The notes below the pieces were generated by a model. It saw only the letters and a list, made by a program, of their open reading frames with translations, had not been told where the DNA came from and ran no database searches. Shown one piece after another: positions 20,742 to 63,940 of a stretch of DNA of 64,000 nt (position 1 is the stretch's first letter; each line of letters starts with the position of its first letter). Location: the IMG/VR virus record IMGVR_UViG_3300035698_004085, positions 64,001-128,000 of that record; one strand, given 5' to 3'. Source of the DNA: a virus. Made by a program: the position numbers and the translations under genes.

Positions 20742-20754
20742 AATGGAGACTATA

Positions 20755-22095
20755 ATGAAAAAGAAAGCGAAAAGAATAATGAAAAAGAAAAGTGAACATC
20801 ACATGTGGAATGCTCAGTCAGACGATAATGGGCAAGTAACCATCAACCGGAATACTGCTGAGCGTGAAGAGTTTGAGGAGTCGGACTTCCTCATGGCTGT
20901 TACAGCAAGTTCTTGGGGATTCTTTGGCGCAAGTCTTGTAGACCAGTTTTCAAAGAAGGTTACAGCTGCTGAGAAATCTCGTTTCCAGTTAGTTGCCAAG
21001 ACTTTAAAAGCTTCTGGCGAAAAGCCTCCCCGTGTTAGATCTTGGGAAGAGCTTCGCAAGGCTTTTGGTAATGATGAGATGTCTGAGGCTCGTGAGTTCA
21101 TTTCTGACGGAATGAAGGTTCGTCAAGCTTCTAAGTTCCTTAATCTTCCTTTTATTATTGCTGCGGATCTTGTAGACGAGATTGAAGTAGTTGGTAAAAA
21201 GGCTATGAAGGATATTGTTAAACGAGTCAAAAAAGGCGATAAAAAGGTCGTAAAAGACTACGGAAAGGTTGCATCTTCTGTTAAAAGGCTGTATGATGAG
21301 GCTTTAAGAGAGGGTAATACTAAGATTGCTATTGATGATTCTGCTAAAGACTATTGGACTCAGTATTATGGTGAATACGGTGAGCAGTTGGTAGGCGAGG
21401 TTAAAAAGCGGGTTAAAGCTGATGTTGCTTACGAGTGGTTAAGACGTAATGGCGTTGATGAGGCTGCAGCAGCTTATTGGGCAAATTATTATACAGATGG
21501 AGACTATGGTAAAGACATGGTAAAAACTCCTGAGAAAAGAACTACTCCTAAAGCTAGTAGGAAGAAAGCTCAAGATGTTGATGAGATGAAAGAGGCTCTT
21601 GAGATTTATATTAATGAATATGGAACCGAAGAGGGTTTTGTACAGTGGTTTTTAACTGGAGTTCGATCAACGGCTAGTAAGAAAGCTCAAGACGTTAATG
21701 AGATGAAAGAGGCTCTTGATATTTATATTAATGAATATGGAACCGAAGAGGGATTTGTACAGTGGTTTTTAACCGGAGTTCGATCAGCATCTAGGAAGAA
21801 AGCTCAAGATGTTGATGAGATGAAAGAGGCTCTTGAGATTTATATTAATGAATATGGAACCGAAGATGGTTTTGTACAGTGGTTTTTAACCGGAGTTCGC
21901 TCAGCATCTAGGAAGAAAGCTAATTTGTTCGAGGACCTTAAGAGTACGCTAGTGAAAGAGGTTGGAGACTATATTAATTCTCTTCCTGCTGAAGAACAAG
22001 ATGCTGCTATGGACTTAGCTGGGCAACAAATGCAAAATTTAGTAGGGGAGTTAATGGATTATCGAGATTCTAGCATGGGAGGAGATGTTTACTAA
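20755..22095 (+). CDS. Modular acidic protein with a triplicated 39-aa unit and KKAQ linkers (putative processed virion protein)
   Basis: Start placed at GGAG-N6-ATG 20755; three KKAQDVDEMKEALEIYINEYGTEEGFVQWFLTGVRS units. Confidence 0.7.
   Translation: MKKKAKRIMKKKSEHHMWNAQSDDNGQVTINRNTAEREEFEESDFLMAVTASSWGFFGASLVDQFSKKVTAAEKSRFQLVAKTLKASGEKPPRVRSWEELRKAFGNDEMSEAREFISDGMKVRQASKFLNLPFIIAADLVDEIEVVGKKAMKDIVKRVKKGDKKVVKDYGKVASSVKRLYDEALREGNTKIAIDDSAKDYWTQYYGEYGEQLVGEVKKRVKADVAYEWLRRNGVDEAAAAYWANYYTDGDYGKDMVKTPEKRTTPKASRKKAQDVDEMKEALEIYINEYGTEEGFVQWFLTGVRSTASKKAQDVNEMKEALDIYINEYGTEEGFVQWFLTGVRSASRKKAQDVDEMKEALEIYINEYGTEDGFVQWFLTGVRSASRKKANLFEDLKSTLVKEVGDYINSLPAEEQDAAMDLAGQQMQNLVGELMDYRDSSMGGDVY
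21562..21921 (+). repeat. 117-bp coding tandem repeat, three units plus a partial fourth
   Basis: AAGAAAGCT recurs at 21562, 21679, 21796 and 21913. Confidence 0.92.
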
Positions 22096-22574
22096 TGAAA
22101 TTTGAAATGACAGAAAAATCGTTTAGCAGAATTGCTCAAGTTATGGATGAGGGCGTTCATACTGATAAGAAGGCTCAATCCTCAGTTGGCGGGGATCTGG
22201 GTATAGATGAGTTCACCCAAGGATATATTGAGGCTGCTTTTTGGACTGAAGATGAGAGTGAGGAGCTAGAAGACTTAGGTTTTTATGATATTGCACCAGA
22301 AGCTTTAAAGTCTGTTAGTGAGGAGTGTGACAAGTTTCAGTCCGATAACTCAAACCTTCTTTCTGAATATTATGCTGAGCGTGAGGGGGAAACGGAGGGT
22401 ACTCCAGAAGCTAATGCCGGTCATGATTTTTGGTTAACAAGAAATGGTCATGGAGTAGGCTTCTGGGATAGAGGACTTTCTGAATATCTGGGAGATGCTC
22501 TAACTGAGGCTGCTGATGCCTACGGAGAGTCTTATATGTATGCTGGTGATGACAACAAAGTGTATTTTGATTAG
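22095..22574 (+). CDS. Acidic phage protein with a GHDFWLTRNGHG domain
   Basis: N-terminal leader plus KKAQ, then a compact acidic domain whose motif I recognise from uncharacterised phage proteins. Confidence 0.65.
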   Translation: MKFEMTEKSFSRIAQVMDEGVHTDKKAQSSVGGDLGIDEFTQGYIEAAFWTEDESEELEDLGFYDIAPEALKSVSEECDKFQSDNSNLLSEYYAEREGETEGTPEANAGHDFWLTRNGHGVGFWDRGLSEYLGDALTEAADAYGESYMYAGDDNKVYFD

Positions 22575-22577
22575 ACT

Positions 22578-22814
22578 ATGAATCCTTTTTCAACAACCAA
22601 TCTTCAAAAACTTGCCAATTCTAATTCCTGGCACTACTCTGAAGAAGAGGTTGTTGAAGTATTAGACAGGGTTGATGCTTTAGCTGCTAGAATGTATGAT
22701 TTTAAAACAATGCTAGAGTCTGAAGAAGATGAAGCGAGAAAGCAGGGGCTACTCGATGACTTCAACTTTACGTTAGACAAGATTGAAGAGTCTTTAAAGT
22801 GGTTTGGGGGTTAG
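22578..22814 (+). CDS. Small acidic helical protein
   Basis: ORF followed by a terminator. Confidence 0.55.
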   Translation: MNPFSTTNLQKLANSNSWHYSEEEVVEVLDRVDALAARMYDFKTMLESEEDEARKQGLLDDFNFTLDKIEESLKWFGG

Positions 22815-22848
22815 TTTCCTAGCTGCTTTAACAGGCTAGTTTACATAG

Positions 22849-22878
22849 GGGCTGAGAACTTAGGTTCTCAGCCCTTTC
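22849..22878 (+). terminator. Intrinsic terminator
   Basis: GGGCTGAGAAC-TTAG-GTTCTCAGCCC-TTT. Confidence 0.75.
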
Positions 22879-22915
22879 TCGTATATTATAGATAACCTTA
22901 AAAGGAGGGTTAATA

Positions 22916-23377
22916 ATGGCTGAGTATAAATTCTGGGATGAGAGTCGAAACCTACAGGCTAAAATCTATTCAGGGTTTCCTGGCGTTGGAAAATCTTATT
23001 ATTTTATAAAATCGAATACTGGGGTTTTGGATAGTGATAGTAGCCACTTCGATAAGAAAGATTTCCCAAATAACTATATTCAACACATAAAGGATAACCT
23101 GAATATTGCAGACATCATATTTGTTAGTAGCCATAAAGAGGTTAGGGATGCTCTAGTTGAAGAAGAACTAGACTTTACGTTAGTGTATCCTGATTTGAGT
23201 TTGAAGCAAGAGTATTTAGAGCGATATAACGAAAGAGGAAGCCGTCAACTGTTTATGAATCTTATCTCTACTAATTGGGAGAATTGGTTATTAGAGCTTA
23301 TGCGGCAGGAGAAGTGCCGACATATTGTATTAAAGTCTGGTGAATTTATGTCAGATGCTCTTAAAAAAGAAGAATAA
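22916..23377 (+). CDS. P-loop NTPase/kinase-like protein
   Basis: SGFPGVGKS Walker A, LDSDSS. Confidence 0.7.
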   Translation: MAEYKFWDESRNLQAKIYSGFPGVGKSYYFIKSNTGVLDSDSSHFDKKDFPNNYIQHIKDNLNIADIIFVSSHKEVRDALVEEELDFTLVYPDLSLKQEYLERYNERGSRQLFMNLISTNWENWLLELMRQEKCRHIVLKSGEFMSDALKKEE

Positions 23378-23380
23378 ATA

Positions 23381-23701
23381 ATGCACGAATCAATTGACGA
23401 TAAAGTTAAAGAACTTGAAGACAAGATAAAGAGCGCTGCTGAAATAACTCCAGAAGATGCAAAAGTCATGGAATTCTTCAGCTTTGTTAATAAGGTCAAT
23501 CAGGCAAAAGCTGAGGTTAAGGACAATGGGGAAGAGGTAGACCCTTGCCCAGACGGGTTAGAGGATTGTGATGACCTTGTGTGCCCAGAGTGTTCAGGTG
23601 CATTAGTCACTGTATCTTTTTCCTTGCCAATTCAGGTTGAATGTTCAGAATGCGGAGAACTCTTTAAATTAAGGGACCTTATAATATCTCAAAAAGATTA
23701 A
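23381..23701 (+). CDS. Zinc-ribbon hypothetical protein
   Basis: CPEC...CSEC. Confidence 0.6.
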   Translation: MHESIDDKVKELEDKIKSAAEITPEDAKVMEFFSFVNKVNQAKAEVKDNGEEVDPCPDGLEDCDDLVCPECSGALVTVSFSLPIQVECSECGELFKLRDLIISQKD

Positions 23702-23780
23702 TGTGGTTTAAGAAAACCAAAGGGTTCAGTGGTAATATAGGGATATTGAAAAGCTAAAACTTTATTTTAGGAGATTGATT

Positions 23781-25385: not shown

Positions 25386-25404
25386 ATAAAAGGAATATAT
25401 AAAA

Positions 25405-28400
25405 ATGAAGAAATTATCTGTAAAACAAATTAAAGAACTCCTCTTGAATGGTAAAGAAGTTACCATGAATAAGTGGGCAATTCTTATTAATGAGAATGAT
25501 GAAGTTGCGGTATATGCTCCTGACGGAACTGGTATTGCAGCTTCTTTAATGCTCCTTGACCAAGAGATTGGTAGATTTGTTAGAGCAGCTGGGATGCCGG
25601 ATACGACACCTAAGCCGGTATCCTATCCTGCTACCGAATCTCCTAAGTCAGTTCTAAAAGATGATTCTTCAACTGGTCATCCTACTAAGGACCCTTCAGT
25701 CGTTAAGCAACCCGTTCCCCAAGGTGACAAGCCTAACAAGGGTATGGACAGCGATTCTTCAGAGGGTCACCCTACTAAGGACCCTGCTATTGACAAGCTT
25801 CCGCAGCCTAATAAAGAGCGCGGAGGATTGCCCAATAAAGACCTGGGCAAAGATACTTCTCAAGACTCTACAAATTGGGGAGATAAGCAATCTCGTAAGA
25901 AGAAGTCTAGAGAGCAAGTCTCTTACGGTTTTGCTATCTCTGACGGGTTTGATGAATATTCAGATAATGAGTTTGACTCTGAGGGAGTTACTCAGGCAGC
26001 AATGCAGGTTGAGAGAAACATTTTAAATTGGCTGAATTCAAATATTGGTAATGCTAGAGATGAGGGTCATGGCTCGGATGGTGATTTGATTGGTAGTATT
26101 TTTGTGGATGTTGGAACGGGAGAAGAAGAGTTTATTAAAGACGGTAATGAGCATCTAGGGGAAGAGCCTTATTCAGTAGGTAAGGGGGACTTCCCATTTG
26201 ATCCGTTTGAAGGAGTTGAGGATGCTTATATAAGCGCGTTTATTCCTAGTCTTTCTTTCTTTGGTGAGGGAGATTCTACTAATAGAGTCTATAGTCGCAA
26301 AGCTTTCACTGACGAGCTGTTTGGCGTAGAGATTAATGAAGAGCCTGAAAAGAGCTTTAATGATGGAGAAGATCTTCCCAATATGAATGAAATATTCTCA
26401 GAAATGGGATCTGGAGAAGTTGATGAAGCTGACGAAGATTCTGACGAAGAGGGCATTGAAGTTGAGGTTAAGCTAGAAGTTGATGCTAAGAAGAAAAGAT
26501 CTCAAATGAGAAATCAGTTTGATGGAGTTGCTGTCAGGATCGTAGGGGGTGATACCTTCTTAGAGCTAAATAACGATGAGGTTTATGTAGGCGTTGTACA
26601 CGATAGTTCAAGCATGACTCCTTCTGCTGCTGTTTATATTCAGCAAGGTTGGGGTAGTGAGGACGAAGTTCTTCAAGAGGCATATGCCGAGTTGGAAACA
26701 TCAGATTCTGACAGTCTTTCACCTGAAGAGTCGGAAGAGCGTTGGACTACTCAAGATGCTGAAGGCTATGATCCTTTAACTGAGGCTTATGATGGGTGGG
26801 CGTTTACGACTACTGCTAAAGAGCTTCAATCCATGATTGAGTCTCAAAGTAATCAATATAATAAAGAGAAATTCTCTGAAATAGAGTTTGAAGCTCCTGA
26901 AGAAGATGATGAAGACGAGTATGATGACGACGATAACTATGATGCTGAAGATGCAGCAGGGAAGCTAAATGCCTCAAACAAGATTGCAGACACGTTTGAC
27001 CAAGAGCCTGCTGCGGGACCTTCTTATATGGATTTGGTACATGCCAAGCCTCATGAAGATATGTTAAGAGACATTGGAGATCCTGATAAATGGGCTGCTA
27101 ATCGCATGCTAGAAGCTATGTCTGAGCCTGATGAAAAGAAGTGTAAAGACTGTGGCAAAGTAAAATGCGAATGTGACAAGAAAGAGAAGAAGTCTAGGAA
27201 AAGAGTTTCTAGAGAAGTTGTTTGGGAAGTATCTGAAGAAGATGTTGGGCAAGGAGTAGAGGACAATCCTGTATTTGAGCCTTTAGGGGTTATACAAGAC
27301 AGAGATATTGGTAAGCGCATATATAATATTAATGGAGTTTATCAAGTAGAAAATGATTCACAGCTAGAGAAAAGACTAAATGCATCCCGTAAACAAGCTG
27401 GTCCCAAGATTAAAGAGAATTGGGGAGATGGTGGAACTTATTCAAGGGATTTAGAAGCTGAGTCTGGTGAAGAGCTTTATCACATTGTAAGGTCCCTTGG
27501 ACAAGATGATGATTACGATTGGTCAGGCTATAGTGGAGCAGGCGTTCCTATAATGGATGACGACAATGCTAATGAGATGGAAACCGGCATTATGGCAGGT
27601 AAAATTCCACCTCAATTTTTATCCAAGAATGATAAAGGAAAAGATAAGGATGCAGATGAGAAAGACTCAGAATGCGATAAGTCAGATAAAGAAGCCGTAG
27701 ACGACAATGCTAAAGAGTATTGGGGCAAGTATTTCAAAGACTACGGCAAGGATCTTACTAAGGATCCTAATGACTCTAATAGCACTAATGATGGTAGCCG
27801 GGCTGATACTGATGATTATTCTCCTGCTGTTAGTACTCAACCTAAGCCAACTGGTCAACAGCAAGTGGACAAGAAGATTAAAGCTCGAAAAGCTAAGCGT
27901 AAAGCACAGGAGGTATTAGACAGTGCTGATACTATGAGCGAACTTATGCAAAAGTTTGATGAGGCACTTGCTATATGGGTTCAGGAATATGGGTCTGATG
28001 CTGGATTCAACGAGTGGTTTACTCAGCAAGTGGCTAGCAAGACTGCTAAGCGTAAAGCACAGGATTATCAGTCTGAATTAGAAGATTCCCTAATGTCTGC
28101 TGCTCAACAGGGTGATGTAGAACAACTAAGATGGTTGGTTGAAACTGAGGGAGCTTTGGGGTTAGATAATGCTCTTCAACAGGCTACTTCAGCGGGACAA
28201 CAAGGCGCTGTAGAATATCTTCAATCCGCATTGGGTACAACGGCTTCTCGTAAAGCTCAGAATGCACCTCCTGGCTCTGCTCCCGCTCCTGCTGCTCCCG
28301 CTGATCCTGCGGGTGAGACTGCACCTCCTGCTGGTGGCGCTCCTGCTCCAGCGGCTCCTGCTCCAGCGGCTCCTGCTCCCTCTACCAAGCCTGCTCCGGG

Positions 28401-29061
28401 TGCTGGCGATGAGGGTTTAAAGTCTTTGGGATTCACTGATCAAGAGATTCAGACAATGACTCCTGAAGTTAAGACTAAGATTCTTCAAGTTCAAAAGGGA
28501 CCTGCTCCAGCCGCTCCAGGTGCTAAGTCTCCCGCAGCTCCGACCGCACCTTCCGCTCCAGGGGCACCCGCTGCACCTGCTGCTCCCGCCGCACCTGCAG
28601 CTCCTCCTGCACCGTCTAAACCTGTAGCAACTCGTTTAGCAAGGCAAGTAAAGGATTCTGCTAAGGTTAAGAGAGCATTTGCAATGTTGTCACAAGTTGC
28701 GCCAGCTCCGGTTGCGCCAGCTCCTACAACTCCTGCACCTGCTCCCGCTGCACCTGCTCCCGCTGCACCTGCTCCCGCTGCACCTGCTCCAAGTGCTCCT
28801 AAGGCACCCGCTGAGGGTCCGTCTTCCGAGTTTGATACGAGTACTGGTGCGGGTTCTGGACAGCCTACAGTAGAGGCTATGGCTCTTCTGAATGAGATTA
28901 GGCTAAAGCCTGTATCCGCAGAGACTCCTGCGCAAGTTTCCTCAATTAAAGCCCAAGAGTTAGTACAGAGACTATTGAGTGAGGTTGGATTACCAATTAG
29001 TGAGGCTAGAACTGCTTTAGGTCTTCAAAAAGACGAATCTTTTGACAAATTGTTTGAATAA
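25405..29061 (+). CDS. 1218-aa modular acidic protein with basic linkers, an ankyrin-like pair and Ala/Pro tracts (putative virion polyprotein)
   Basis: About nine basic linkers; LMSAAQQGDVEQLRWLVE/ALQQATSAGQQGAVEYL ankyrin-like; (APA)n tracts. Confidence 0.75.
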   Translation: MKKLSVKQIKELLLNGKEVTMNKWAILINENDEVAVYAPDGTGIAASLMLLDQEIGRFVRAAGMPDTTPKPVSYPATESPKSVLKDDSSTGHPTKDPSVVKQPVPQGDKPNKGMDSDSSEGHPTKDPAIDKLPQPNKERGGLPNKDLGKDTSQDSTNWGDKQSRKKKSREQVSYGFAISDGFDEYSDNEFDSEGVTQAAMQVERNILNWLNSNIGNARDEGHGSDGDLIGSIFVDVGTGEEEFIKDGNEHLGEEPYSVGKGDFPFDPFEGVEDAYISAFIPSLSFFGEGDSTNRVYSRKAFTDELFGVEINEEPEKSFNDGEDLPNMNEIFSEMGSGEVDEADEDSDEEGIEVEVKLEVDAKKKRSQMRNQFDGVAVRIVGGDTFLELNNDEVYVGVVHDSSSMTPSAAVYIQQGWGSEDEVLQEAYAELETSDSDSLSPEESEERWTTQDAEGYDPLTEAYDGWAFTTTAKELQSMIESQSNQYNKEKFSEIEFEAPEEDDEDEYDDDDNYDAEDAAGKLNASNKIADTFDQEPAAGPSYMDLVHAKPHEDMLRDIGDPDKWAANRMLEAMSEPDEKKCKDCGKVKCECDKKEKKSRKRVSREVVWEVSEEDVGQGVEDNPVFEPLGVIQDRDIGKRIYNINGVYQVENDSQLEKRLNASRKQAGPKIKENWGDGGTYSRDLEAESGEELYHIVRSLGQDDDYDWSGYSGAGVPIMDDDNANEMETGIMAGKIPPQFLSKNDKGKDKDADEKDSECDKSDKEAVDDNAKEYWGKYFKDYGKDLTKDPNDSNSTNDGSRADTDDYSPAVSTQPKPTGQQQVDKKIKARKAKRKAQEVLDSADTMSELMQKFDEALAIWVQEYGSDAGFNEWFTQQVASKTAKRKAQDYQSELEDSLMSAAQQGDVEQLRWLVETEGALGLDNALQQATSAGQQGAVEYLQSALGTTASRKAQNAPPGSAPAPAAPADPAGETAPPAGGAPAPAAPAPAAPAPSTKPAPGAGDEGLKSLGFTDQEIQTMTPEVKTKILQVQKGPAPAAPGAKSPAAPTAPSAPGAPAAPAAPAAPAAPPAPSKPVATRLARQVKDSAKVKRAFAMLSQVAPAPVAPAPTTPAPAPAAPAPAAPAPAAPAPSAPKAPAEGPSSEFDTSTGAGSGQPTVEAMALLNEIRLKPVSAETPAQVSSIKAQELVQRLLSEVGLPISEARTALGLQKDESFDKLFE

Positions 29062-29088
29062 TAAATACCCAAAGGAGGGATATTTAAA

Positions 29089-29832
29089 ATGACTGAAAAA
29101 CTAAGAGTATTTAATAAGACACATGGTGCAATATCGTTTAACGTGCTTCCTGCATTAGACGACTCTATTTGGGCAATGTCTGAGCATCATCGGCGCAAGA
29201 AGATTCGTTCTTCTGGGATTCCTGTATTGGTACAGAAGCAGACTTCTCAAGATCTTGTAGACACTACAAAGCGCTCTATTGAAGAGATTAAGAAAAGCCC
29301 AGACTTTATTCAAATCATGAAGAAGTCCGTTTTCGACGTTCTAGAGGATTCTTCAATTGTGGTTGAAGAGGTTTTAGTACCTGCTGGTGTAACCGTTGAT
29401 GAAGTTAAGGTTGAAGACATTCTAACTGAGGATGAGCTTGAGAAAGAGATAGTTGGGGTACCTGAAGTGACAGAAACTGAGATTTCAAACACTCAAGATG
29501 TGGTAATAGAACCGGTTATTGATACAGCTTCGAATTTCCCTATGGTAGAGCTTGAGAAAGAACCAGTTTTAACTCCTGCGTATAATGCCGCACCTGTAGT
29601 TGTTGAATCCGAAAAAGAAGAAGAAGAATCTCAAGATGATACTAAGAAGATTTCAGTTCCTCCTTCAGCTCCAGTTGCTCCGATAATGCCTCAGATGCCT
29701 GCAATGCCAGTAGAAGAGAAGCCTAAAGTAAGAAGAGGACGACCACCGAAGTCAGAGGTTAAACCTAAAAACAAAGGTGGAAGACCCAAGAATAGCCCTA
29801 ACAAGCCCAAAGCTCCTAAAGTAAAGGAGTAA
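29089..29832 (+). CDS. Hypothetical protein with AT-hook-like C-terminus
   Basis: RRGRPPK and KGGRPKN motifs. Confidence 0.6.
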   Translation: MTEKLRVFNKTHGAISFNVLPALDDSIWAMSEHHRRKKIRSSGIPVLVQKQTSQDLVDTTKRSIEEIKKSPDFIQIMKKSVFDVLEDSSIVVEEVLVPAGVTVDEVKVEDILTEDELEKEIVGVPEVTETEISNTQDVVIEPVIDTASNFPMVELEKEPVLTPAYNAAPVVVESEKEEEESQDDTKKISVPPSAPVAPIMPQMPAMPVEEKPKVRRGRPPKSEVKPKNKGGRPKNSPNKPKAPKVKE

Positions 29833-29835
29833 TAT

Positions 29836-30456
29836 ATGCTAGTAAAGGCACATAATTCACCTGATAAATACTTAGAAGATTTTGGCTTAGCCGAAGGTAG
29901 ACAAGTTCATTTCTACGAGAGTGGTCCTGAATATCTTGGCAAGGTGGCTATTTCGTTAGTTCATCACGTTTTAGCAATGTGGGCTGAAAAACCACTAAAA
30001 GTAAGATGCGATATAGCTGACTCAGAAGAATCAAAGAGATCAGGGCTTCAAACCTATGATTCTCTAGATGAAAATGCTGGCTTATTCTTTCCTTATATTC
30101 CTTATACTGAGGTTACCTTTCATCAAGGATCTGTCTCATACCCATTAGACATTATTTTCCTGAAGGATGAAGAGATAATCAAGATTCAGTCAGATACTAA
30201 AGTAGGATCATCTGATAGATGGTCTTGTGCTGAGGTTTCTGGAGTAATCGAGGTTAATGCAGGCTTTTGCAAAGCTAATAAGGTAGCAGTAGGTGATAGA
30301 ATCGTTTTACAAGCTGTATCTGAACAAGACATTAAAGAGGTAGAAGAAGAGAACTTTCTAATGCTGGCTTATGGATCTGAGGATTCTCATGACGCTAAGT
30401 TCTCCTATATGCCAAATTCAGTTAATCTATCTTCAGCTATAGCAGATATGCTTTAA
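29836..30456 (+). CDS. DUF192-family protein
   Basis: IADSEESKRSGLQ..GLFF..FHQGSVSYPLDIIFL..VIEVNAG..GD pattern. Confidence 0.8.
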   Translation: MLVKAHNSPDKYLEDFGLAEGRQVHFYESGPEYLGKVAISLVHHVLAMWAEKPLKVRCDIADSEESKRSGLQTYDSLDENAGLFFPYIPYTEVTFHQGSVSYPLDIIFLKDEEIIKIQSDTKVGSSDRWSCAEVSGVIEVNAGFCKANKVAVGDRIVLQAVSEQDIKEVEEENFLMLAYGSEDSHDAKFSYMPNSVNLSSAIADML

Positions 30457-30466
30457 ACCAGGAGTT

Positions 30467-30832
30467 TTGATGTTAGATATTAAATCAGACCAATTGCTCT
30501 ACCCATATCGAATCTATCTTAAGGGAGGGCATGTTATAGTAGTATGGCTTCCTTTTGAAGATTCAAAGGATTGTGGAGTTGAGCTTTTAAAAGTGAAGAA
30601 GTCTAAGACTACGGGAATGATGCTTTATGGATTTAGACAAAACCTTCAGCCTTATGACATTTTTATGGATGCTTCAGAAATAGTAGGATTTGACAGAGCG
30701 CTAACAACGGATGCTAGATCACTCGATATGAACGCTGCAAGGTTAAAGCAAGCTGCTCAGTCAAACCACGTGAATAACTCCAAAAAGGGTAAGGTAACTG
30801 TTGGACAGACAGTTAAGAAAACAAGGAATTAA
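30467..30832 (+). CDS. Hypothetical protein
   Basis: ORF with RBS AGGAG. Confidence 0.55.
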   Translation: MMLDIKSDQLLYPYRIYLKGGHVIVVWLPFEDSKDCGVELLKVKKSKTTGMMLYGFRQNLQPYDIFMDASEIVGFDRALTTDARSLDMNAARLKQAAQSNHVNNSKKGKVTVGQTVKKTRN

Positions 30833-30833
30833 T

Positions 30834-32423
30834 ATGATACCTACATTTAATGAATTAATGCAGAATGAGAAAGTTAGGAATCATCCCTTACTTGCAGGAT
30901 ATAATAACCTGCCTAACGTTAGAGAAGGTATTCTAAAGCACTCACAATCGCTTGAGGATGAGTTCTCTCAGTCTACCAACCCTTTAAAGGAAGATCCTGA
31001 GTTAGACCTTCAATCGACTATTCATGAGGCTGCTAGGTTAGTGGAGGATTCCTTAGCTCAGTTTGATTTTCCTCTTCTTCCTAAGATCTCTTATAACAAT
31101 ACAAGAGATCTCAAGTATGCTCGTCATAATGAGGCTCAAGTGTCTCAAGGGTTAGTCCTGTTCAACGTTGAAATGAAAGCTGCTTCTGGTATTAAGAAAA
31201 CAGCTCTAATTCCCGTAGCAATCTCAGGAGGAACTTTAGTTCCTCCTTCTGTCATGGAAGTTGATGGAAGCATGTATACGCTTTCTCAATCATCTGTTAA
31301 TACTATTTTAGGAAGGTTGACTTCGTATGAGTTGCCTCAGCTAAGAGAGCAGTTTGATCCTCCTATGAATAGAGATGAGCGAAGTATAGCTGTTGACATG
31401 AGGAATGAAGCAGGTTGGAAAACTAGAACTAAAAACCCTGAGCACTATATGATGCAAGAGGTTAAACAAGCTAGGCGAAGAGCGCAAATGGGGTTGGAGA
31501 GCTACCTAAGCGTTGTAGAGGACTGGGCTGCTGATCAAGGGCTGAGCATAGAAGGTACTCCTAGTTTTGCAGAAGGTGAAATGGGATTGTCGCTAAGTGA
31601 TGGTAGTAAGATAGTTGTGACTAAGGGAGATGAAGCAGGGTCTGAGGTATTATGGGTTTCGGACCTTACTAATCCGAATAATGATGACACAATAACGTTA
31701 ACTGCGCGTAATAAGAATGCTGCTGGCAAGAAAGCTGTTAAATCTACTCCAAGTGCTTATGGAATCGTTATGGAAGCAATGATAGAGGCTGAAGAGAGCG
31801 GAGAAGATACGTTCCCGCGTCCTTATCATTATGTGCTGGCTAACTACATCTTAAAGCACGTTAACACTGCGTCTAAAGACGCTTGGGAGCCTCACCTTAT
31901 TAATCAGGGATTCTGTATCAATCCTTACGGATATAATAGACATCGGTTTCATAAAGGTGGCAGAGTTAGTCAGAGTGAGATTGAAGAATATTATGAGGAT
32001 GGTGGTCCTAACAAAAAGCAGTGTAAGGGTTGTGGCAAACTGTTTGATGTTAGGGAGCTAGACGACAAAGGTAACTGCGAGGACTGTGCTCCTTCAGCTA
32101 AGAACGCTAAATATCGAAGGAGTGCTCAACATGAGAAGACGCAAGAGTTTGATAAAGAGATTGATTTTGAGTTGGACGAGGATGAAGGGATATCTGAAGC
32201 AGTTCCTGGAGGGAATAGCCGCTTTTATACGGATACAAAAACCCCAATTGAGCCAAGCGATAAGGTAAGATTTCCTCATTCTAAAGGTCCAATGCGTGGA
32301 GTAATTGTAGAAATAAGCGAAGATGAAAACACTATAATTATTGAGTCTAAGGGTGACCAATACAGGGTTGAGGTAGATAGCGTAGAGCCACTTCCCGCAA
32401 CATTCAAAAAGATGTATCGATAG
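30834..32423 (+). CDS. Modular protein with basic linkers, a zinc finger and a C-terminal SH3/KOW-like domain
   Basis: ARRRAQ and YRRSAQ linkers; CKGC..CEDC; IEPSDKVRF..RGVIVEI. Confidence 0.65.
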   Translation: MIPTFNELMQNEKVRNHPLLAGYNNLPNVREGILKHSQSLEDEFSQSTNPLKEDPELDLQSTIHEAARLVEDSLAQFDFPLLPKISYNNTRDLKYARHNEAQVSQGLVLFNVEMKAASGIKKTALIPVAISGGTLVPPSVMEVDGSMYTLSQSSVNTILGRLTSYELPQLREQFDPPMNRDERSIAVDMRNEAGWKTRTKNPEHYMMQEVKQARRRAQMGLESYLSVVEDWAADQGLSIEGTPSFAEGEMGLSLSDGSKIVVTKGDEAGSEVLWVSDLTNPNNDDTITLTARNKNAAGKKAVKSTPSAYGIVMEAMIEAEESGEDTFPRPYHYVLANYILKHVNTASKDAWEPHLINQGFCINPYGYNRHRFHKGGRVSQSEIEEYYEDGGPNKKQCKGCGKLFDVRELDDKGNCEDCAPSAKNAKYRRSAQHEKTQEFDKEIDFELDEDEGISEAVPGGNSRFYTDTKTPIEPSDKVRFPHSKGPMRGVIVEISEDENTIIIESKGDQYRVEVDSVEPLPATFKKMYR

Positions 32424-32875
32424 GAGTATTAGGATGAACCGCATTAATGGTATTTCAAATGAAGGTCTTCTAAGATTAAAAGCTCAACAAGGTTGGGAGC
32501 CTGGAGATCGGGTCGATGAATACTCAGACGAGGAGTGGGCTAGAGTGCAAAAGGGTGAGGCACCTTTTTTGAATGAAACATTAGGCTTAGCGGTAGAGGA
32601 TTTGAGCTGGAAGGTAGAGCGTCTTCCTAGTGAAGATCAGGATCTATATCAGAGTATTATGTATCGTTATGACATTAGGACCGGACCGGGTGAAACTATA
32701 TCTGGGCTTGTTGACTCTTTGCCAGAAAAAGAGAAATCACAATTCCGGCAAGATATAGCTATGGCGTTTGGCGATATAGTGCCAGATTTAAAAAATAGGT
32801 AGATAGGAGTATTAGGATGAAACGCATTAATGGTATTTCAAATGAAGGTCTTCTAAGATTAAAAGCTCAACAAGG
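32419..32875 (+). repeat. 74-bp direct repeat (32419-32492 and 32802-32875) covering RBS and leader
   Basis: GATAGGAGTATTAGGATGAA(C/A)CGCATTAATGG...CAACAAGG, one mismatch. Confidence 0.93.
32434..32802 (+). CDS. Leader-plus-cargo acidic protein
   Basis: MNRINGISNEGLLRLKAQ leader. Confidence 0.75.
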   Translation: MNRINGISNEGLLRLKAQQGWEPGDRVDEYSDEEWARVQKGEAPFLNETLGLAVEDLSWKVERLPSEDQDLYQSIMYRYDIRTGPGETISGLVDSLPEKEKSQFRQDIAMAFGDIVPDLKNR

Positions 32876-33275
32876 AGAGCTTTCAGATCCTGAAGAAGAG
32901 TCGAAGTCTATACGGCTTAGCCAGATGCTGGATTCTGAGTTAACCAAATCTACTGAAGAGCTTTATAACTCTCTTCGTGAAGCTTTTCAAGGAGTAGAGG
33001 GTGGGCGTTATTTGCAGGTTGCTGACGAGTTTGAAGCAGCTGTAGTGCAGGAGATTGAGCGTCAGTTTGAACAACTTCACGAATGGGCTGCTATTGAACT
33101 AGACGTTGATATTAACTGGAAAGACCTTCGTAGCTTATCAGAAACAGCTAAAGCTGCCTTTGATAATGCTTTTATGCAGGTATATGACTCTGGAATGACT
33201 GATAACGATTTGTATAATGTGGCTCAAGCTGCGTTTGACGAGGTTGTAAATGACCTTGAATGGTTTTTAAAGTAA
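32817..33275 (+). CDS. Leader-plus-cargo acidic protein
   Basis: MKRINGISNEGLLRLKAQ leader. Confidence 0.75.
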   Translation: MKRINGISNEGLLRLKAQQGELSDPEEESKSIRLSQMLDSELTKSTEELYNSLREAFQGVEGGRYLQVADEFEAAVVQEIERQFEQLHEWAAIELDVDINWKDLRSLSETAKAAFDNAFMQVYDSGMTDNDLYNVAQAAFDEVVNDLEWFLK

Positions 33276-34486
33276 TGAAAAAAGCTCAAGAAGATAATTT
33301 AGGATATGACCAAGAGTATACAATGCTCCTATTTGGTTATGACGTAGCTATTGTACCTTCAGATATGGGTCCTGATTATTTTTATGTAACTTTACACGAG
33401 TTAGGCGCTGAAGTTTTTGGTGAGGACATCCCAATTCCGCCAATTCAGCCAAACGAAACTAACGAAGAGAGTATTAACAACGTTGCTCAAACCGCTATTG
33501 ATATGTTTGAATCTCAACGCGGAACATTAGGTGAAGGAGCAGGAGCTATGGAAGCATCTGTAAAGAAGCTAGCATTTATGTGGCAAAGTGATATGGAATC
33601 TTTCTATATGAAATTAAAAGGCACTCCTTACGAGGAAATGGCTTACAATCTTATAGAACGATATTACGAAGTAGAAGTTGAAGAAGCTGCATATGTTGAT
33701 GCTGCGAGCGATGAGCGAGCAGAGTGTGCCAATATTGAGCATCAGCTTAAAATGCTCAATCTGCAAAGAATGCAAATGTCTAAGGCAGATACTAAAGTCA
33801 TTATTATCCAGGCAACTTATAAAGAATCTTGGATAGGTGATGCAGAAGAGATTCAGCGCTTCTTAGACAAATTCATTAGCTCACCTCTTGAAGGATCTGT
33901 CGTAAAGCTAATTAGTAGCTATCTAGACCTTAAAGAAGTTATTCGTAAACAAGAAATGGGGATAGAAGATTTCTGGGAGAGTAGATCAGACATTCGTAGC
34001 CAAATGGAAAGCTTGGAAATGGAAGCTCTTCAAGTAAATGTCGTAGAGAAGATCCCAACTAGCGGTCTAGATGCTTTCCCAGCAATGGGTGAAGAGATAG
34101 CTGAGTTAATGGACGGCGTAGCAATGGACGAACCTCTTGAGCCTATGTCAGACCTAATGCCTTTTACAGCTGGCAAAGATCCTGAAGAAGAGGATGAATT
34201 TATTCCAGTAGAAGATCGCATTGAAGAGCTTGGAGAGTTTCATAAAGGTTTAGACGTTGCTGAAGTAATTCCTCCTGAGAATAAGAGCTTTGAAATCGGT
34301 GATGAAGTAAAGCTGTCTAAAGAGTTTGAAGTCTTCAATGTAGCAGGGGCTTTAACAGTGCTTTCTAAAGGCGCTCTCGGAGTTGTTGAGAGCTTAGGAG
34401 ACGGAACAGCTGAGAACTATGTAGTAAGGTTCTTAGAAGATCAGGTATGTATACCAATTCCTTCTAAAATATTAACGAAGAAATAG
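33275..34486 (+). CDS. Acidic protein starting MKKAQ with a C-terminal SH3-like domain
   Basis: TAATG-coupled start; FEIGDEVKL..KGALGVVE..YVVRF. Confidence 0.65.
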   Translation: MKKAQEDNLGYDQEYTMLLFGYDVAIVPSDMGPDYFYVTLHELGAEVFGEDIPIPPIQPNETNEESINNVAQTAIDMFESQRGTLGEGAGAMEASVKKLAFMWQSDMESFYMKLKGTPYEEMAYNLIERYYEVEVEEAAYVDAASDERAECANIEHQLKMLNLQRMQMSKADTKVIIIQATYKESWIGDAEEIQRFLDKFISSPLEGSVVKLISSYLDLKEVIRKQEMGIEDFWESRSDIRSQMESLEMEALQVNVVEKIPTSGLDAFPAMGEEIAELMDGVAMDEPLEPMSDLMPFTAGKDPEEEDEFIPVEDRIEELGEFHKGLDVAEVIPPENKSFEIGDEVKLSKEFEVFNVAGALTVLSKGALGVVESLGDGTAENYVVRFLEDQVCIPIPSKILTKK

Positions 34487-60557: not shown

Positions 60558-61250
60558 AAAATGACACAGCTAGTAAACTATGATCAATTGTATATTTCTT
60601 TTAACGAAGGACCGTTTGTGGTTGTAAAAAAAGAAAAGCAGTATAGGATAGAGGAGCAAAGTTGTAAAGACTCTATTAAGTCTTGTTTACCTCATGAGCC
60701 TTCTACTCATAAACTGTTGGATAGTCTAGGGCTAAGCGGGTGGACTCCTGATCCACTGCTGGCTATGAACGTTTGTAACAAGCTGAACGGTCGGTTACCT
60801 CAGAAGTCTGAACAGCTCAAGCTTAAGGATCTCATCAAGGCTGCTCAAGACTTCGTTGAGTATGGAGAAAATGGTGGGCGAGAGGACGGAGACAACGGGC
60901 TTGACTACATCTACTATACGGAGAAGTTTGACGCTCTAAAGGCTGCTGTAAAAGCATTGAAGGAGAATTAAGATGATTATTCGCTGGACGACAAAGCGTG
61001 TATATAAGCATGATGGGGCAAAGCTCGGGTCAGGACTTCGTAAGTGGAAAAGAGTGTTAAAGACTACACTATGGATCTTGTTTATCCCAATCTTTACTAA
61101 AACTGTTGACCCAGGATTTAGGAGGTAATTAAGGTAGACGAACTACTTAAATAACTTTGCCTCAATAAATATAAAATAAGTAACTTTAAGCTAGACAACA
61201 GTGTGTGAAGTATAATATAGTAGATTCAAGAAGCTAAAGGAGCTTAAGCT

Positions 61251-61592
61251 GTGGAATTAACCTCAAAAATCGCTAGGAAAAAGGTCAATACTGATATGTG
61301 GGCAACGATAATTGATAAATATGCCCAAGATATGAGCCAAGCACCTGAACAAATCGACCCAACTGCTATTCAAATGGGTCAAAGCATTTATGACGGCACT
61401 GGAACAGAATATGTCGTTATTGAGGATGATCCTACCACAACTGATAAAACCGTAATGCCAGCAGACCAATCAGGCTCAGACTTACCAGAAGGAGTCAAGA
61501 CTGTTCAGGATACGGAACTTTCTTCAGAATTCAACGTGCAACCTGCTGAAGGAATAGTAGCAAGCATTGAACCAGAGTTTGTAAGGGGATAA
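61251..61592 (+). CDS. Acidic protein with a basic N-terminus and a DKYAQ motif
   Basis: RBS AAGGAG; opens the second leader-cargo cluster. Confidence 0.6.
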   Translation: MELTSKIARKKVNTDMWATIIDKYAQDMSQAPEQIDPTAIQMGQSIYDGTGTEYVVIEDDPTTTDKTVMPADQSGSDLPEGVKTVQDTELSSEFNVQPAEGIVASIEPEFVRG

Positions 61593-61878
61593 AGAAGATG
61601 TTAAAGCAAAGAGGAATAAGTGAAGAAGGCTTAAAGAGAATAAGTAAGGTTATCGGACAAGCTAGTTCTTCATTTGAAGAGGACCTTGCTAACTTTATAT
61701 GGGAGAGCGACGGAACTAAAGAAGAAATACTACAAGAGCTTAAAGTCGAATATCCAAACGCTACCTTATCACAAATTATGAAAGCCTGGGACGTAGCTTA
61801 CTACTAGCTATTAACTCGTAAGAGGATAAAGAAGATGTTAAAGCAAAGAGGAATAAGTGAAGAAGGCTTAAAGAGAAT
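61587..61878 (+). repeat. 55-bp identical direct repeat (61587-61641 and 61824-61878) covering RBS and leader
   Basis: GGATAAAGAAGATGTTAAAGCAAAGAGGAATAAGTGAAGAAGGCTTAAAGAGAAT occurs twice. Confidence 0.93.
61598..61807 (+). CDS. Leader-plus-cargo acidic protein
   Basis: MLKQRGISEEGLKRI leader. Confidence 0.72.
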   Translation: MLKQRGISEEGLKRISKVIGQASSSFEEDLANFIWESDGTKEEILQELKVEYPNATLSQIMKAWDVAYY

Positions 61879-62062
61879 TGCCAATTCATCTATTGCTCAA
61901 CCCGCGCTTGAGCAGCTTAGGCAAGATATGAACACTTCCATTAAATCCTTGTATGAAGGTTTAACATCAGAAGAAGATAGACTTACTCTCGATGACCTTT
62001 ATGATGAATTTATGGCAGGAATTCAAGAATTAATTAGTTACCCAGCAAACGAAGAATATTAA
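61835..62062 (+). CDS. Leader-plus-cargo acidic protein
   Basis: MLKQRGISEEGLKRI leader. Confidence 0.72.
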   Translation: MLKQRGISEEGLKRIANSSIAQPALEQLRQDMNTSIKSLYEGLTSEEDRLTLDDLYDEFMAGIQELISYPANEEY

Positions 62063-62072
62063 GGAATATAAA

Positions 62073-62339
62073 ATGAAGTTACTAGAACAAAGAGGAATCA
62101 CTAACGAAGGTATCAAGAGACTATCTAAAGTAGTTAAAAAGTCTGGAGCTTCTGAGATAGTTAACCAGATTATGCAAGCAGTTGATCCTCTTATTAACGA
62201 CCTTTTCTTACAACTTCCTGATTCTGCGTCAGAAGATCAGTTAGACGAGCTATATACTGGATTCCTTCGGGAACTTAACGAAATTGTATCTCCAGGATCT
62301 CTGGATGATCTTAAAAACTCTGATGAGATAGGATATTAA
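62073..62339 (+). CDS. Leader-plus-cargo acidic protein
   Basis: MKLLEQRGITNEGIKRL leader; cargo resembles that of 61835 (LDELYTGF vs LDDLYDEF). Confidence 0.72.
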   Translation: MKLLEQRGITNEGIKRLSKVVKKSGASEIVNQIMQAVDPLINDLFLQLPDSASEDQLDELYTGFLRELNEIVSPGSLDDLKNSDEIGY

Positions 62340-62340
62340 A

Positions 62341-62814
62341 ATGAAATTGCATGGAATAGACGTAGATGGAATGAAGAGAATCGCTAAGAAAGCCCAGATG
62401 GAAGATTCTGGTCCTAGCCCTAGCTTACACCAGGAGTTGGTAGATGCAGGTATCCCAGTAGAGAACCATGAGTCTGACTTGTATTTCCCAGTTACTCCTG
62501 AAACTCAAGCAATTGTAGAAAGCTCTGAGTTCGGTCAAAGTGTAGAAACTTTTACAGACAATATTGACGGAGAACAATGGTTTGATGCTCCTTTCCAGTA
62601 CGATCCTTCTCTAGGTAATAAAATGGCATCTGAGAAAGAAGCTGCATCAGACGATGAAACCTGGGATAAGCTTGACCTTATTCGTACAGCCTTAGACGAT
62701 ACTGAAATTGTGGACAATCTTATTAAAGGTCTGTCCTCTGAAGAAGCTAATAGCTCACTAGACTATATTATTCAAATGTATGATCTTTCTTCAGAAGAAG
62801 GAATGGAGTATTAA
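62341..62814 (+). CDS. Leader-plus-cargo acidic protein (two modules)
   Basis: MKLHGIDVDGMKRIAKKAQ leader; internal ASEKEAA linker. Confidence 0.72.
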   Translation: MKLHGIDVDGMKRIAKKAQMEDSGPSPSLHQELVDAGIPVENHESDLYFPVTPETQAIVESSEFGQSVETFTDNIDGEQWFDAPFQYDPSLGNKMASEKEAASDDETWDKLDLIRTALDDTEIVDNLIKGLSSEEANSSLDYIIQMYDLSSEEGMEY

Positions 62815-62815
62815 A

Positions 62816-63220
62816 ATGAAGTTGCACGGAGTTACGCCTGAAGGAATGAAACGTTTAGCTAAGGTTGCTCAAATGGATGAAGAACCCATGATGGGCGGGG
62901 GCTTGTCAGACGTAGAAGACTTAGTTCTATTTATAGATAATTCAGGCGAGCTTTATCCTCAAACGCAAGAGATTCAAAAGAGTCTTATTCAAAAAATTCA
63001 ACGCGGAGTTTATGATTCAGATCAGGCACCTCAGCTTTGGAGCTATCTAGTAGAAGCTGGCGCAAAACAGTACGTTCAAGAAATGAACGACGGAATGTCT
63101 TGGTTTCAAAAATTCCCCCCAGAAGTTAGACAAGAAGCGGCTCAAATGATGGCTGAAGAGTTTGATGAAGAAATCTCTTTTGCTGGAGACGAAGATCTTA
63201 ACGAGCACTTCGGAGTCTAA
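62816..63220 (+). CDS. Leader-plus-cargo acidic protein
   Basis: MKLHGVTPEGMKRLAKVAQ leader. Confidence 0.72.
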   Translation: MKLHGVTPEGMKRLAKVAQMDEEPMMGGGLSDVEDLVLFIDNSGELYPQTQEIQKSLIQKIQRGVYDSDQAPQLWSYLVEAGAKQYVQEMNDGMSWFQKFPPEVRQEAAQMMAEEFDEEISFAGDEDLNEHFGV

Positions 63221-63226
63221 GCTATA

Positions 63227-63793
63227 ATGACTTTACCTCGCACCAAAGGTCTTTCTGAAGCAAGTTATAATAGGCTTGCTGCAACCTATTTTGGAGAAGA
63301 TGATCCTTATTCTGAGAAGGTTGTTAAGAAACAAGACGCCTGGATGCGCATGAAGGATAAAAAAGAAACCAATCTCGAAAATTGGAAAAGCCAAGCTAAC
63401 GGAAAACCAACCAATTATCCTCATAAAGAATCTTCCTCAAAAACTGATGAAATAGATAATTCAGAAAACTTAACACCTGTTTCATCAAACTCGACCTTGA
63501 CTAAATCTAGGTCAAAATCACCCTTAGCCTCTAAGCAAAACTCTCATACATCTCGCACAGTTAAGTCTCAATCTGACCCTCTTTCTGACTCCCCTATCCT
63601 TGATAATAGCTTTGATTTTTCGAGTTTTCCAGAAGAAGGAAAAATAGGATTCTCAGAGGCTAAATCTCTTATCTTAGAAATGATTCAGCAGGGCTTTGAA
63701 GACGTTGACATACTTATTCAGGTGAACGAACGATTCACCAAAGACGTTTCTGACATGGCTTTGCAAGAATGTCGTAGAAAAGGACTTATTTAA
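63227..63793 (+). CDS. Protein with a divergent leader and an SRTVKSQ linker
   Basis: MTLPRTKGLSEASYNRLAA. Confidence 0.6.
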   Translation: MTLPRTKGLSEASYNRLAATYFGEDDPYSEKVVKKQDAWMRMKDKKETNLENWKSQANGKPTNYPHKESSSKTDEIDNSENLTPVSSNSTLTKSRSKSPLASKQNSHTSRTVKSQSDPLSDSPILDNSFDFSSFPEEGKIGFSEAKSLILEMIQQGFEDVDILIQVNERFTKDVSDMALQECRRKGLI

Positions 63794-63940
63794 AATGACT
63801 GCATGGATTAAAGACAGAGTATGGACTTACCCAACCTTAATTATCCCAGCTACTTTAGTTGTTATTGCTCAAATAGCGAGTCTTATCGCGTACTTAGCCT
63901 AGTTTCTCTCCCTCTTTCTTAAAGAATTCCTAAAAAGAAC

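What the first reader, a model, noticed from the sequence alone, without database searches (positions are those of the whole stretch)
61587..63793. Tandem array of six genes sharing the same N-terminal leader, 29 kb from cluster 1
Seen: MLKQRGISEEGLKRI (twice, 55 bp identical including the RBS), MKLLEQRGITNEGIKRL, MKLHGIDVDGMKRIAKKAQ, MKLHGVTPEGMKRLAKVAQ and the divergent TKGLSEASYNRLAA. All align with GISNEGLLRLKAQ at 32.4 and 32.8 kb, giving G[IVL][STD]x[ED]G[LIM]xR[LI]; MTEKSFSRIAQ (22095) is a weaker match. The leader is not a hydrophobic Sec/Tat signal, and the cargoes are acidic and mostly unrelated. Inferred: at least eight proteins addressed to the prohead, trimmed at the K-x-A motif and injected as a variable payload, possibly DNA-mimic or anti-defence proteins. 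A RiPP-like leader/core reading is less likely because no modifying enzymes are adjacent.
Basis: partly seen in the sequence, partly recalled or inferred. Interest (0 to 1): 0.82.

Follow-up and report, generated by a model that had tools for sequence, protein, structure and literature searches.

The report
Portable leader tag on phage cargo
A 175-kb uncultured phage and its relatives put the same ~20-residue basic N-terminal tag on dozens of otherwise unrelated small acidic proteins, one of them a known restriction-enzyme blocker (ArdA); the tag most likely loads them into the virus head for injection, as in phage T4, but this has not been measured.

Summary
Six tandem genes (window 61598-63793) and two at 32434-33275 share an N-terminal motif, roughly M-x(2-5)-G-I-[STD]-x-[ED]-G-[LMF]-x-R-[IL]-[AS]-[KQ]. 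It is conserved at the amino-acid level, through different codons. Four further genes in the genome carry its core.

The tag is modular:
- In relatives it precedes complete, unrelated domains: ArdA, DUF7249 and DUF5662.
- One cargo module of gene D exists without the leader in another phage.
- 37 members from about nine phage lineages fall into 34 cargo clusters, and 35 of 37 are acidic.

In relatives the genes sit at hot spots inside the late capsid/lysis gene block; one contig carries ten. The leader core resembles the clade-wide conserved start of the major capsid protein.

Best reading (about 0.5): a capsid-loading tag analogous to the T4 internal-protein targeting sequence or the N-terminus of P1 DarB, carrying a fast-changing anti-defence payload. 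It is not a member of the T4 family. There is no [LI]xE site and the head lineage is different.

Packaging, injection and the proposed cut at K-x-A are untested. [KR]xAQ is enriched threefold, but no cleavage can be shown.

Earlier notes from this scan describe similar leader arrays in other, T4-like phages.

The parts
61211..61221 (+). Candidate promoter element (TATAATATAGT) in the only real intergenic gap upstream of the array
   Evidence: TATAATATA occurs 3 times in 175 kb, always intergenic: here, upstream of the structural-block gene g20665, and upstream of g150599. The sigma-70 scan gives a 10/12 match at 61192-61221, but site counts are at background level. Weak evidence.
61251..61592 (+). 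Upstream acidic ORF (113 aa, GTG start) in the same operon; not a family member
   Evidence: pI 4.05. Its N-terminus is not among the top PSSM scores.
61581..61641 (+). RBS-plus-leader cassette of gene A; 98% identical to 61818-61878 (gene B)
   Evidence: Identity drops to random on both flanks.
61598..61807 (+). Gene A, 69 aa: leader plus acidic orphan cargo, ends in Tyr-Tyr
   Evidence: (41 bits)
61835..62062 (+). Gene B, 75 aa: leader plus cargo paralogous to C, ends NEEY
62073..62339 (+). Gene C, 88 aa: leader plus cargo paralogous to B, ends EIGY
62341..62814 (+). Gene D, 157 aa: leader, then module 1 (aa 28-89), then module 2 (aa 108-157); ends GMEY
   Evidence: Module 1 is 49% identical to a leaderless 73-aa protein at L012:10049-10267 and resembles free-standing 86-aa proteins in the Atlas. 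Module 2 is 38-48% identical to the cargoes of leader genes in L013, L050 and L055.
62816..63220 (+). Gene E, 134 aa: leader plus acidic helical orphan cargo
   Evidence: The AF2 model has low confidence (pLDDT 53): helix at 8-18, coil at 19-32, then a helical body.
63227..63793 (+). Gene F, 188 aa: divergent leader plus Ser/Lys-rich cargo
   Evidence: 31 bits; core PSSM score 13.3
32407..32492 (+). RBS-plus-leader cassette of X1; 93% identical to 32790-32875 (X2)
32434..32802 (+). Gene X1, 122 aa: leader plus acidic orphan cargo
32817..33275 (+). Gene X2, 152 aa: same leader, unrelated acidic cargo
   Evidence: The Atlas gave nothing usable.
33260..34486 (+). 408-aa very acidic protein (net -48) starting with a possible leader remnant, M-K-K-A-Q
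   Evidence: It reuses the AAAGCTCAA codons found at the end of the X1/X2 leader. Inference only.
22095..22574 (+). Gene Y, 159 aa: weak leader (core S-F-S-R-I-A-Q) plus a complete phrog_1915 domain
   Evidence: phrog_1915 E = 8e-36, aa 37-157 aligned to profile 9-139 of 141. Core PSSM score 16.7, rank 5 of 240.

Best explanation
The ~20 N-terminal residues form a portable address tag. A short turn (G-I-S/T/D) and a helix N-cap box (S/T/D-x-x-E/D) are followed by a basic amphipathic helix with the core G-phi-x-R-[IL]-[AS]-[KQ]. A Gly/Pro/Ser/acid-rich linker and an acidic cargo follow.

The tag is most likely recognised during head assembly, possibly by the same partner that recognises the similar N-terminus of the major capsid protein (NPY-[KR]-x-[IL]-[AS]). 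Tagged proteins would then be enclosed in the prohead and leave with the DNA at the next infection. The payload would be a fast-changing set of anti-defence proteins, ArdA among them.

The RBS-plus-leader cassette also acts as a recombination handle that lets new cargoes be swapped in.

Shown: the tag's existence, its modularity, peptide-level selection, cargo diversity, the ArdA cargo, and the location of these genes in the late block in relatives.

Inferred: capsid loading, injection, and any removal of the tag.
For: 1. Modularity.
- ArdA starts at aa 28, which is profile position 1.
- DUF7249 starts at aa 23 and DUF5662 at aa 40.
- Y is a weak leader plus a complete phrog_1915 domain.
- D's first module has a leaderless homologue.
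- 37 members form 34 cargo clusters.

2. Peptide-level selection is shown by synonymous variation.

3. Sharp RBS-plus-leader identity blocks are joined to unrelated bodies.

4. In every close relative the genes sit at hot spots inside the conserved block from the major capsid protein to g19390. L055 carries ten of them. This genome's g17853 sits in the same block.

5. An anti-restriction protein encoded among late genes is useful to the incoming genome only if it is carried in the particle. This is an inference; the precedents are T4 Ip1-3 (PMC12373910) and P1 Dar (PMC9024508).

6. The capsid protein N-terminus is conserved clade-wide as NPY[KR]x[IL][AS]. In L015, L016 and L021 it scores 12.6-13.6 on a PSSM built from leaders only, above all 228 null N-termini.

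7. The only strong non-family PSSM hit in the proteome lies in the scaffold-like protein.

8. Distant relatives without the capsid-protein motif also showed no leader genes.
Against: - There are no virion data for any member.
- This genome's own capsid protein scores only 5.0 on the PSSM, rank 21 of 240.
- The three high-scoring capsid proteins are orthologues, so they amount to about one observation.
- One extra PSSM hit is within chance expectation, 2.6 +/- 1.5.
- I/L co-variation between capsid protein and leaders is not significant by lineage, 2/2 against 1/7.
- Accessory genes often accumulate near lysis cassettes whatever their function, so position is weak evidence.
- In this genome most members lie far from the head genes, among small accessory genes of unknown timing.
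- Promoter evidence is thin.
- No cleavage motif could be tied to the protease.
- Both structure models are low-confidence.
Confidence: 0.5

Rival explanations
1. The tag is a shared docking helix for a partner outside the virion. Candidates are a host protein such as a nuclease, the nucleoid or RNA polymerase, or a phage chaperone or regulator. The proteins would act in the cytoplasm after being expressed and would never be packaged.
For: Most members in this genome lie among small accessory genes far from the head genes. The cargoes are acidic and could be DNA mimics that act on their own. One relative's cargo has a borderline PcrA/UvrD Tudor domain, a fold known to bind RNA polymerase, at 23.6 bits against a cut-off of 23.9. 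No packaging data exist.
Against: ArdA needs no extra helix to act, according to established knowledge of the family. It is hard to see why about 34 unrelated proteins would need the same partner unless that partner is part of a delivery or sorting route. The genes lie in the late block in all close relatives. The core resembles the capsid protein N-terminus.
Confidence: 0.25
2. The conserved unit is a nucleotide cassette (RBS plus the first codons) that provides strong or regulated translation and a recombination handle. The encoded peptide would have no function of its own.
For: A/B and X1/X2 are identical at the nucleotide level exactly over the RBS plus leader. D and E share the junction TATTAAAATGAA.
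Against: Across the other pairs the peptide is conserved while the DNA is not. A and X1 share 7 residues at 38% nucleotide identity, and C and E share 9 residues with 7 through different codons. The peptide is also conserved in relatives of different GC content.
Confidence: 0.07
3. The tag is loaded into the head as in the best explanation and is then clipped off by the prohead protease after the Ala or Gln of a [KR]-x-A-Q site. The same site would cut the large acidic proteins at window 20.7-32.4 kb into pieces.
For: [KR]xAQ occurs 38 times against 12.8 +/- 3.7 in shuffles, and KKAQ 7 times against 0.65. It ends the leader in D, E, X1/X2, Y and g135742. Inside the large proteins it recurs in a constant context, [ST]-A-x-[KR]-K-A-Q-[DE]. 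The G001 homologue of the 1218-aa protein has R-x-A-Q sites in the equivalent inter-block region. Those large genes lie directly upstream of the terminase and head genes in Rctr197k.
Against: Several counts come from a recent tandem triplication. A, C, F and many relatives' leaders lack the site. This phage's capsid protein has none. The protease's specificity is unknown. Positional conservation was not demonstrable.
Confidence: 0.2
4. The proteins are one paralogous family and the 'leader' is an integral part of a shared fold. Alternatively, it is a secretion or RiPP leader.
For: B and C are full-length paralogues.
Against: There are 34 cargo clusters among 37 members. The tag precedes complete ArdA, DUF7249 and DUF5662 domains. 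It has no hydrophobic core. No modifying enzymes are adjacent, and the cargoes are folded domains.
Confidence: 0.03

Closest known systems
Capsid targeting sequence (CTS) of T4-type internal proteins Ip1, Ip2, Ip3 and Alt
   Same: A short N-terminal leader is shared by proteins with no other homology. The genes sit in hyper-variable loci, and the leader-coding DNA is reused between genes. The cargoes inhibit restriction enzymes and, in T4, are injected with the DNA (PMC12373910, PMC9024508).
   Different: The leader sequence is unrelated and has no conserved [LI]-x-E protease site. The head lineage is not T4: the capsid protein is phrog_2522, and the protease is found only by phrog_18299 with no Pfam match. 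The cargoes are acidic, whereas T4 IPs are basic (from my own knowledge). ArdA targets type I enzymes, whereas the T4 Ips target type IV. Packaging has not been shown here.
Phage P1 Dar system (the N-terminal 30 residues of DarB act as a capsid-targeting signal)
   Same: Anti-restriction proteins against type I systems are built into the head through an N-terminal signal and delivered with the DNA (PMC9024508).
   Different: P1 Dar proteins show no shared consensus leader (stated in PMC9024508). DarB is a 250-kDa enzyme, not a small acidic protein. There is no sequence similarity to this leader.
ArdA antirestriction proteins (Pfam PF07275) of plasmids, transposons and phages
   Same: One relative's tagged protein (L013:10656-11423) contains a complete ArdA domain, 118 bits against a cut-off of 27.
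   Different: Ordinary ArdA proteins start at the domain. This one carries a 27-residue leader and lies among late head genes. The window's own genome has no ArdA.
Propeptide-bearing ejection and inner-body proteins of giant phages (phiKZ, SPN3US)
   Same: Many head-internal proteins are processed by the prohead protease, and the payload is large and variable (PMC5694885, PMC7411985; I read the abstracts only).
   Different: From my own knowledge, those propeptides end in S/A/G-x-E and do not share one leader. No homology to them was found here.

Membership tests
T4-type CTS / internal protein system | One N-terminal leader shared by otherwise non-homologous proteins | tested here: met
   37 members form 34 cargo clusters. 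X1 and X2 share 19 of 20 leader residues and nothing else.
T4-type CTS / internal protein system | Leader sequence of the T4 type ending in the gp21 cleavage motif [LI]-x-E | tested here: not met
   The leader alignments show no conserved [LI]-x-E. The S/T/D-x-x-E/D element varies (D-V-D, T-P-E, S-D-Q, S-N-K) and fits a helix N-cap.
T4-type CTS / internal protein system | T4-type head: gp23-like capsid protein and gp21-like (Peptidase S77) prohead protease | tested here: not met
   The capsid protein matches phrog_2522 and weakly the HK97-type Phage_capsid family. The protease matches only phrog_18299, with no Pfam or PDB sequence match. The nearest deposited phage is Rctr197k.
T4-type CTS / internal protein system | Proteins are physically packaged in the head, processed and injected | not testable with these tools
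   The phage is uncultured, and no proteomic data were found.
T4-type CTS / internal protein system | Cargo counteracts host restriction | tested here: inconclusive
   One relative's cargo is ArdA. No cargo in this window has a recognisable function.
ArdA (PF07275), for the relative's protein L013:10656-11423 | Match to the family model above the curated cut-off over the whole domain | tested here: met
   118.4 bits against a cut-off of 27; aa 28-191 align to profile positions 1-152 of 155.
Sec/Tat signal peptide | Hydrophobic core of about 10 or more residues after a basic N-region | tested here: not met
   The maximum 9-residue Kyte-Doolittle mean in the first 30 aa is 1.3 or less, and mostly below 0.8.
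RiPP precursor | Short core peptide with adjacent modifying enzymes | tested here: not met
   The cargoes are 45-230 aa and include complete folded domains. No enzyme genes are adjacent.

The most novel reading that the evidence does not exclude
The tag works by mimicking the conserved N-terminal arm of the major capsid protein. Any protein carrying it would be co-assembled on the scaffold or protease like a capsid subunit. That would be a head-loading route in a non-T4, HK97-fold phage lineage that needs no T4-style protease site. A second signal, the acidic C-terminus ending in Tyr found on a third of members, would act in retention or ejection. The tag would then index a large catalogue of unknown injected anti-defence proteins.
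Probability: 0.2. Interest if true: 0.8.

Novelty: new variant of a known kind. Interest (0 to 1): 0.62.

Why it matters
If the tag is a head-loading signal, the T4 strategy of carrying anti-defence proteins in the particle would have arisen independently in an unrelated group of large phages, with a different signal.

The tag then becomes a search handle. Anything behind it is a candidate injected counter-defence protein. At least 33 of the cargoes found here have no known relatives.

Pre-loaded ArdA against type I restriction would be a new delivery mode for that family.

A defined ~20-residue tag could also be used to load foreign proteins into phage heads, as has been done with T4 and P1.

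Tried and rejected
- Pfam and PHROGs on all window members gave no family except phrog_1915 for Y.
- blastn of the array against deposited phages found nothing.
- The leader profile on Rctr197k gave no clear member.
X2 as a query found nothing.
- The word-filtered search of 5.8 billion proteins with the leader returned only the window's own proteins.
- The exhaustive search gave two high-scoring hits, P0007 and P0010. I rejected both as eukaryote-like repeat proteins whose scores are inflated by repetition.
A 61%-identical orthologue in L013 was used instead.
- Sigma-70 promoter and terminator scans were at background level. An intergenic k-mer search gave only the 3-copy TATAATATA.
- ArdA, DUF7249 and DUF5662 are absent from this genome.
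- Protease family assignment through Pfam and PDB gave nothing.
- The Atlas look-up for X2 gave nothing usable.
- AF2 single-sequence models were of low confidence, so no fold search was made on them.
- The leader profile against PDB gave nothing.
- Pfam on ten more relatives' cargoes gave nothing.
- I considered SAP/HeH, helix-turn-helix and a MinD-like membrane-targeting helix by eye. I dropped all three: no family model matched, and the leader lacks the first helix or the hydrophobic face those motifs need.
- I/L co-variation between the capsid N-terminus and the leaders is not significant by lineage.
Full report
**What is there.** The window is bases 64001-128000 of a complete 175,002-bp phage record with direct terminal repeats. 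Nearly all its genes lie on one strand. The window holds replication and nucleotide-metabolism genes. The head genes lie elsewhere in the genome: protease at 8900-9844, a scaffold-like gene at 9847-11691, the major capsid protein at 12498-13706, and terminase at 162353-164497.

At window 61598-63793 six tightly packed ORFs (A-F; 69, 75, 88, 157, 134 and 188 aa) begin with the same motif. So do X1 and X2 at 32434-33275. The strict motif occurs eight times in the six-frame translation of the whole genome, always at these N-termini.

A 7-residue core PSSM, G-phi-x-R-[IL]-[AS]-x, applied to the first 28 residues of all 240 predicted proteins gives a clean gap. Twelve proteins score 13.3 or more, and the next best scores 9.8. 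The four additions are Y (window 22095), genome ORFs 135742 and 136188, and ORF 17853 inside the structural block.

**Is it more than chance, and at what level is it conserved?**
- A profile built only from this genome's sequences recovers an outside protein, P0011. It matches at residues 1-27 with E = 1.2e-4 against 1.84 billion proteins.
- The same kind of profile recovers leader genes in related contigs.
- Two stronger hits in that search, P0007 and P0010, are eukaryote-like repeat proteins and are coincidental.
- Conservation is on the peptide. C and E share 9 of 16 core residues, 7 through different codons. A and X1 share 7 residues at 38% nucleotide identity.
- A/B and X1/X2, by contrast, share nucleotide-identical blocks covering exactly the RBS plus leader (61 nt and 86 nt), with random flanks. 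That is the signature of cassette duplication or gene conversion onto unrelated bodies.

**The tag is modular.**
- In contig L013 (IMG/VR, capsid protein about 67% identical) four leader genes lie together. One is a 27-residue leader followed by a complete ArdA domain: PF07275, E = 5.8e-34, aa 28-191 aligned to profile positions 1-152 of 155.
- In the complete 188.6-kb relative G001 the leader precedes DUF7249/phrog_871, which starts at aa 23, and DUF5662, which starts at aa 40.
- Y is a weak leader plus a full phrog_1915 domain.
- D consists of three parts. After the leader comes module 1, 49% identical to a leaderless 73-aa protein in L012 (E = 4e-19). Module 2 follows and is shared with the cargoes of leader genes in L013, L050 and L055.
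- Thirty-seven members from about nine lineages fall into 34 cargo clusters. Of the 37, 35 have pI below 5.5.
- The first 22 residues are net positive in 24 of 25 members examined, and the remainder is net -4 to -50. There is no hydrophobic core.
- The S/T/D-x-x-E/D element fits a helix N-cap. Two AF2 models, both of low confidence, show a helix at about residues 8-20, then coil, then the body.

**Where the genes sit.** In all close relatives with enough flank, the leader genes lie on the same strand 2-10 kb downstream of the capsid protein gene. They occupy a few hot spots between conserved genes of the late block. These hot spots follow the homologues of g15188, g15544, g16341, g16751 and g18341. 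L055 has ten such genes. g15188 to g15878 look like a lysis cassette (small membrane proteins); this is my inference from the sequences.

Other relatives, like this genome, have few or none beside the head genes. This genome keeps most of its members in two accessory loci. The cargo families seen in relatives are absent here, so the payload turns over completely while the tag persists.

**Link to head assembly.**
- The capsid protein of the whole clade begins M-x(1-4)-N-P-Y-[KR]-x-[IL]-[AS].
- On the leader-only PSSM, the capsid N-termini of L015, L016 and L021 score 12.6-13.6, above all 228 null N-termini. This genome's own scores 5.0, rank 21 of 240.
- More distant relatives (capsid protein 47-55% identical, Rctr197k included) lack both the motif and detectable leader genes.
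- Proteome-wide, the only strong PSSM hit outside the family is an internal site of the scaffold-like protein. One such hit is within chance expectation.
- A relaxed motif that I defined after seeing the data is almost confined to N-termini: 10 of 16 occurrences. Those ten include the capsid protein and the protease.

These observations point the same way, but they are few, partly post hoc and phylogenetically dependent.

**Cleavage.** [KR]xAQ is enriched threefold. It ends the leader in several members. It also recurs in a constant context inside the large acidic proteins at window 20.7-32.4 kb. The Rctr197k homologues of those proteins lie directly upstream of its terminase and head genes.

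Against cleavage: part of the excess is a recent tandem triplication. Many leaders lack the site. This phage's capsid protein has none. The protease cannot be assigned to a family of known specificity. Positional conservation could not be shown. I therefore treat cleavage as open.

**A second feature.** Twelve of 37 members end in Tyr, usually after acidic residues. In this genome the count is 5 of 12 members against 10 of 228 other genes (Fisher p = 3e-4). I have no explanation for this.

[quoted passage not shown] The first 30 residues of P1 DarB are a capsid-targeting signal (PMC9024508).

The present system has the same logic but fails the sequence, protease-site and head-lineage criteria for the T4 family. 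It works like a CTS system, if it is one at all, without being a member of that family.

Earlier notes of this scan describe similar leader arrays in other, mostly T4-like, phages. They also flagged the K-K-A-Q linker in this genome. I used those notes as leads only.

**Verdict.** The tag is a modular, peptide-level address on a highly variable acidic payload that includes ArdA. Capsid loading is the best-supported reading, at about 0.5, but it is unproven. Trimming at K-x-A is not established.

Noticed in passing
window 20725-32423 (genes at 20725, 23775, 25405, 30801): Large, very acidic proteins (net charge down to -99) carry repeated modules ending in [ST]-A-x-[KR]-K-A-Q-[DE]. One of these is a 39-aa cassette present three to four times in the gene at 20725. 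Their Rctr197k homologues sit directly upstream of that phage's terminase and head genes.
   Followed up: partly
all family members; window 61598-62814 for A-D: C-terminal Tyr after acidic residues (NEEY, EIGY, GMEY, EEEEY, REEY, GGEEY) occurs in 12 of 37 members. In this genome it occurs in 5 of 12 members against 10 of 228 other genes (p = 3e-4). Two cluster-1 genes (window 20406 and 20725) also end in Tyr. Unexplained.
   Followed up: partly
genome 2458-7329 (L001:2458-7329), outside the window: A 1623-aa ORF whose middle matches the Rctr197k gene next to its protease carries two sets of intein/Hint domains and LAGLIDADG domains. A head gene, probably the portal, appears to be interrupted by inteins.
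   Followed up: no
window 29836-30456: A DUF192 (COG1430) protein, E = 5e-18, lies among the large acidic proteins and is conserved in Rctr197k.
   Followed up: no
genome 15188-16339 (L001), outside the window: Three small membrane or lipoprotein-like ORFs between capsid-proximal genes look like a holin/spanin lysis cassette embedded in the structural block. In relatives the leader genes are inserted between them.
   Followed up: partly
window 61211-61219; genome 20600-20660 and 150540-150598: TATAATATA occurs exactly three times in 175 kb, each time 30-60 nt upstream of a gene start. It is a possible promoter without a -35 element, shared by the array and a structural-block gene.
   Followed up: partly
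L010 (Rctr197k) around record position 143,800: An unannotated frame encodes G-L-S-D-E-G-Y-A-R-L-H-A-V, the best but weak (12.6 bits) leader-like match in that phage. It lies in a gap between annotated genes.
   Followed up: no
window 63795-63902: A 35-aa hydrophobic ORF directly follows gene F. A near-consensus TTGACA-type element follows at about 63941.
   Followed up: no
L015:5712-6008: The cargo of one relative's leader gene has a borderline PcrA/UvrD Tudor domain, 23.6 bits against a cut-off of 23.9. In helicases this fold binds RNA polymerase.
   Followed up: no
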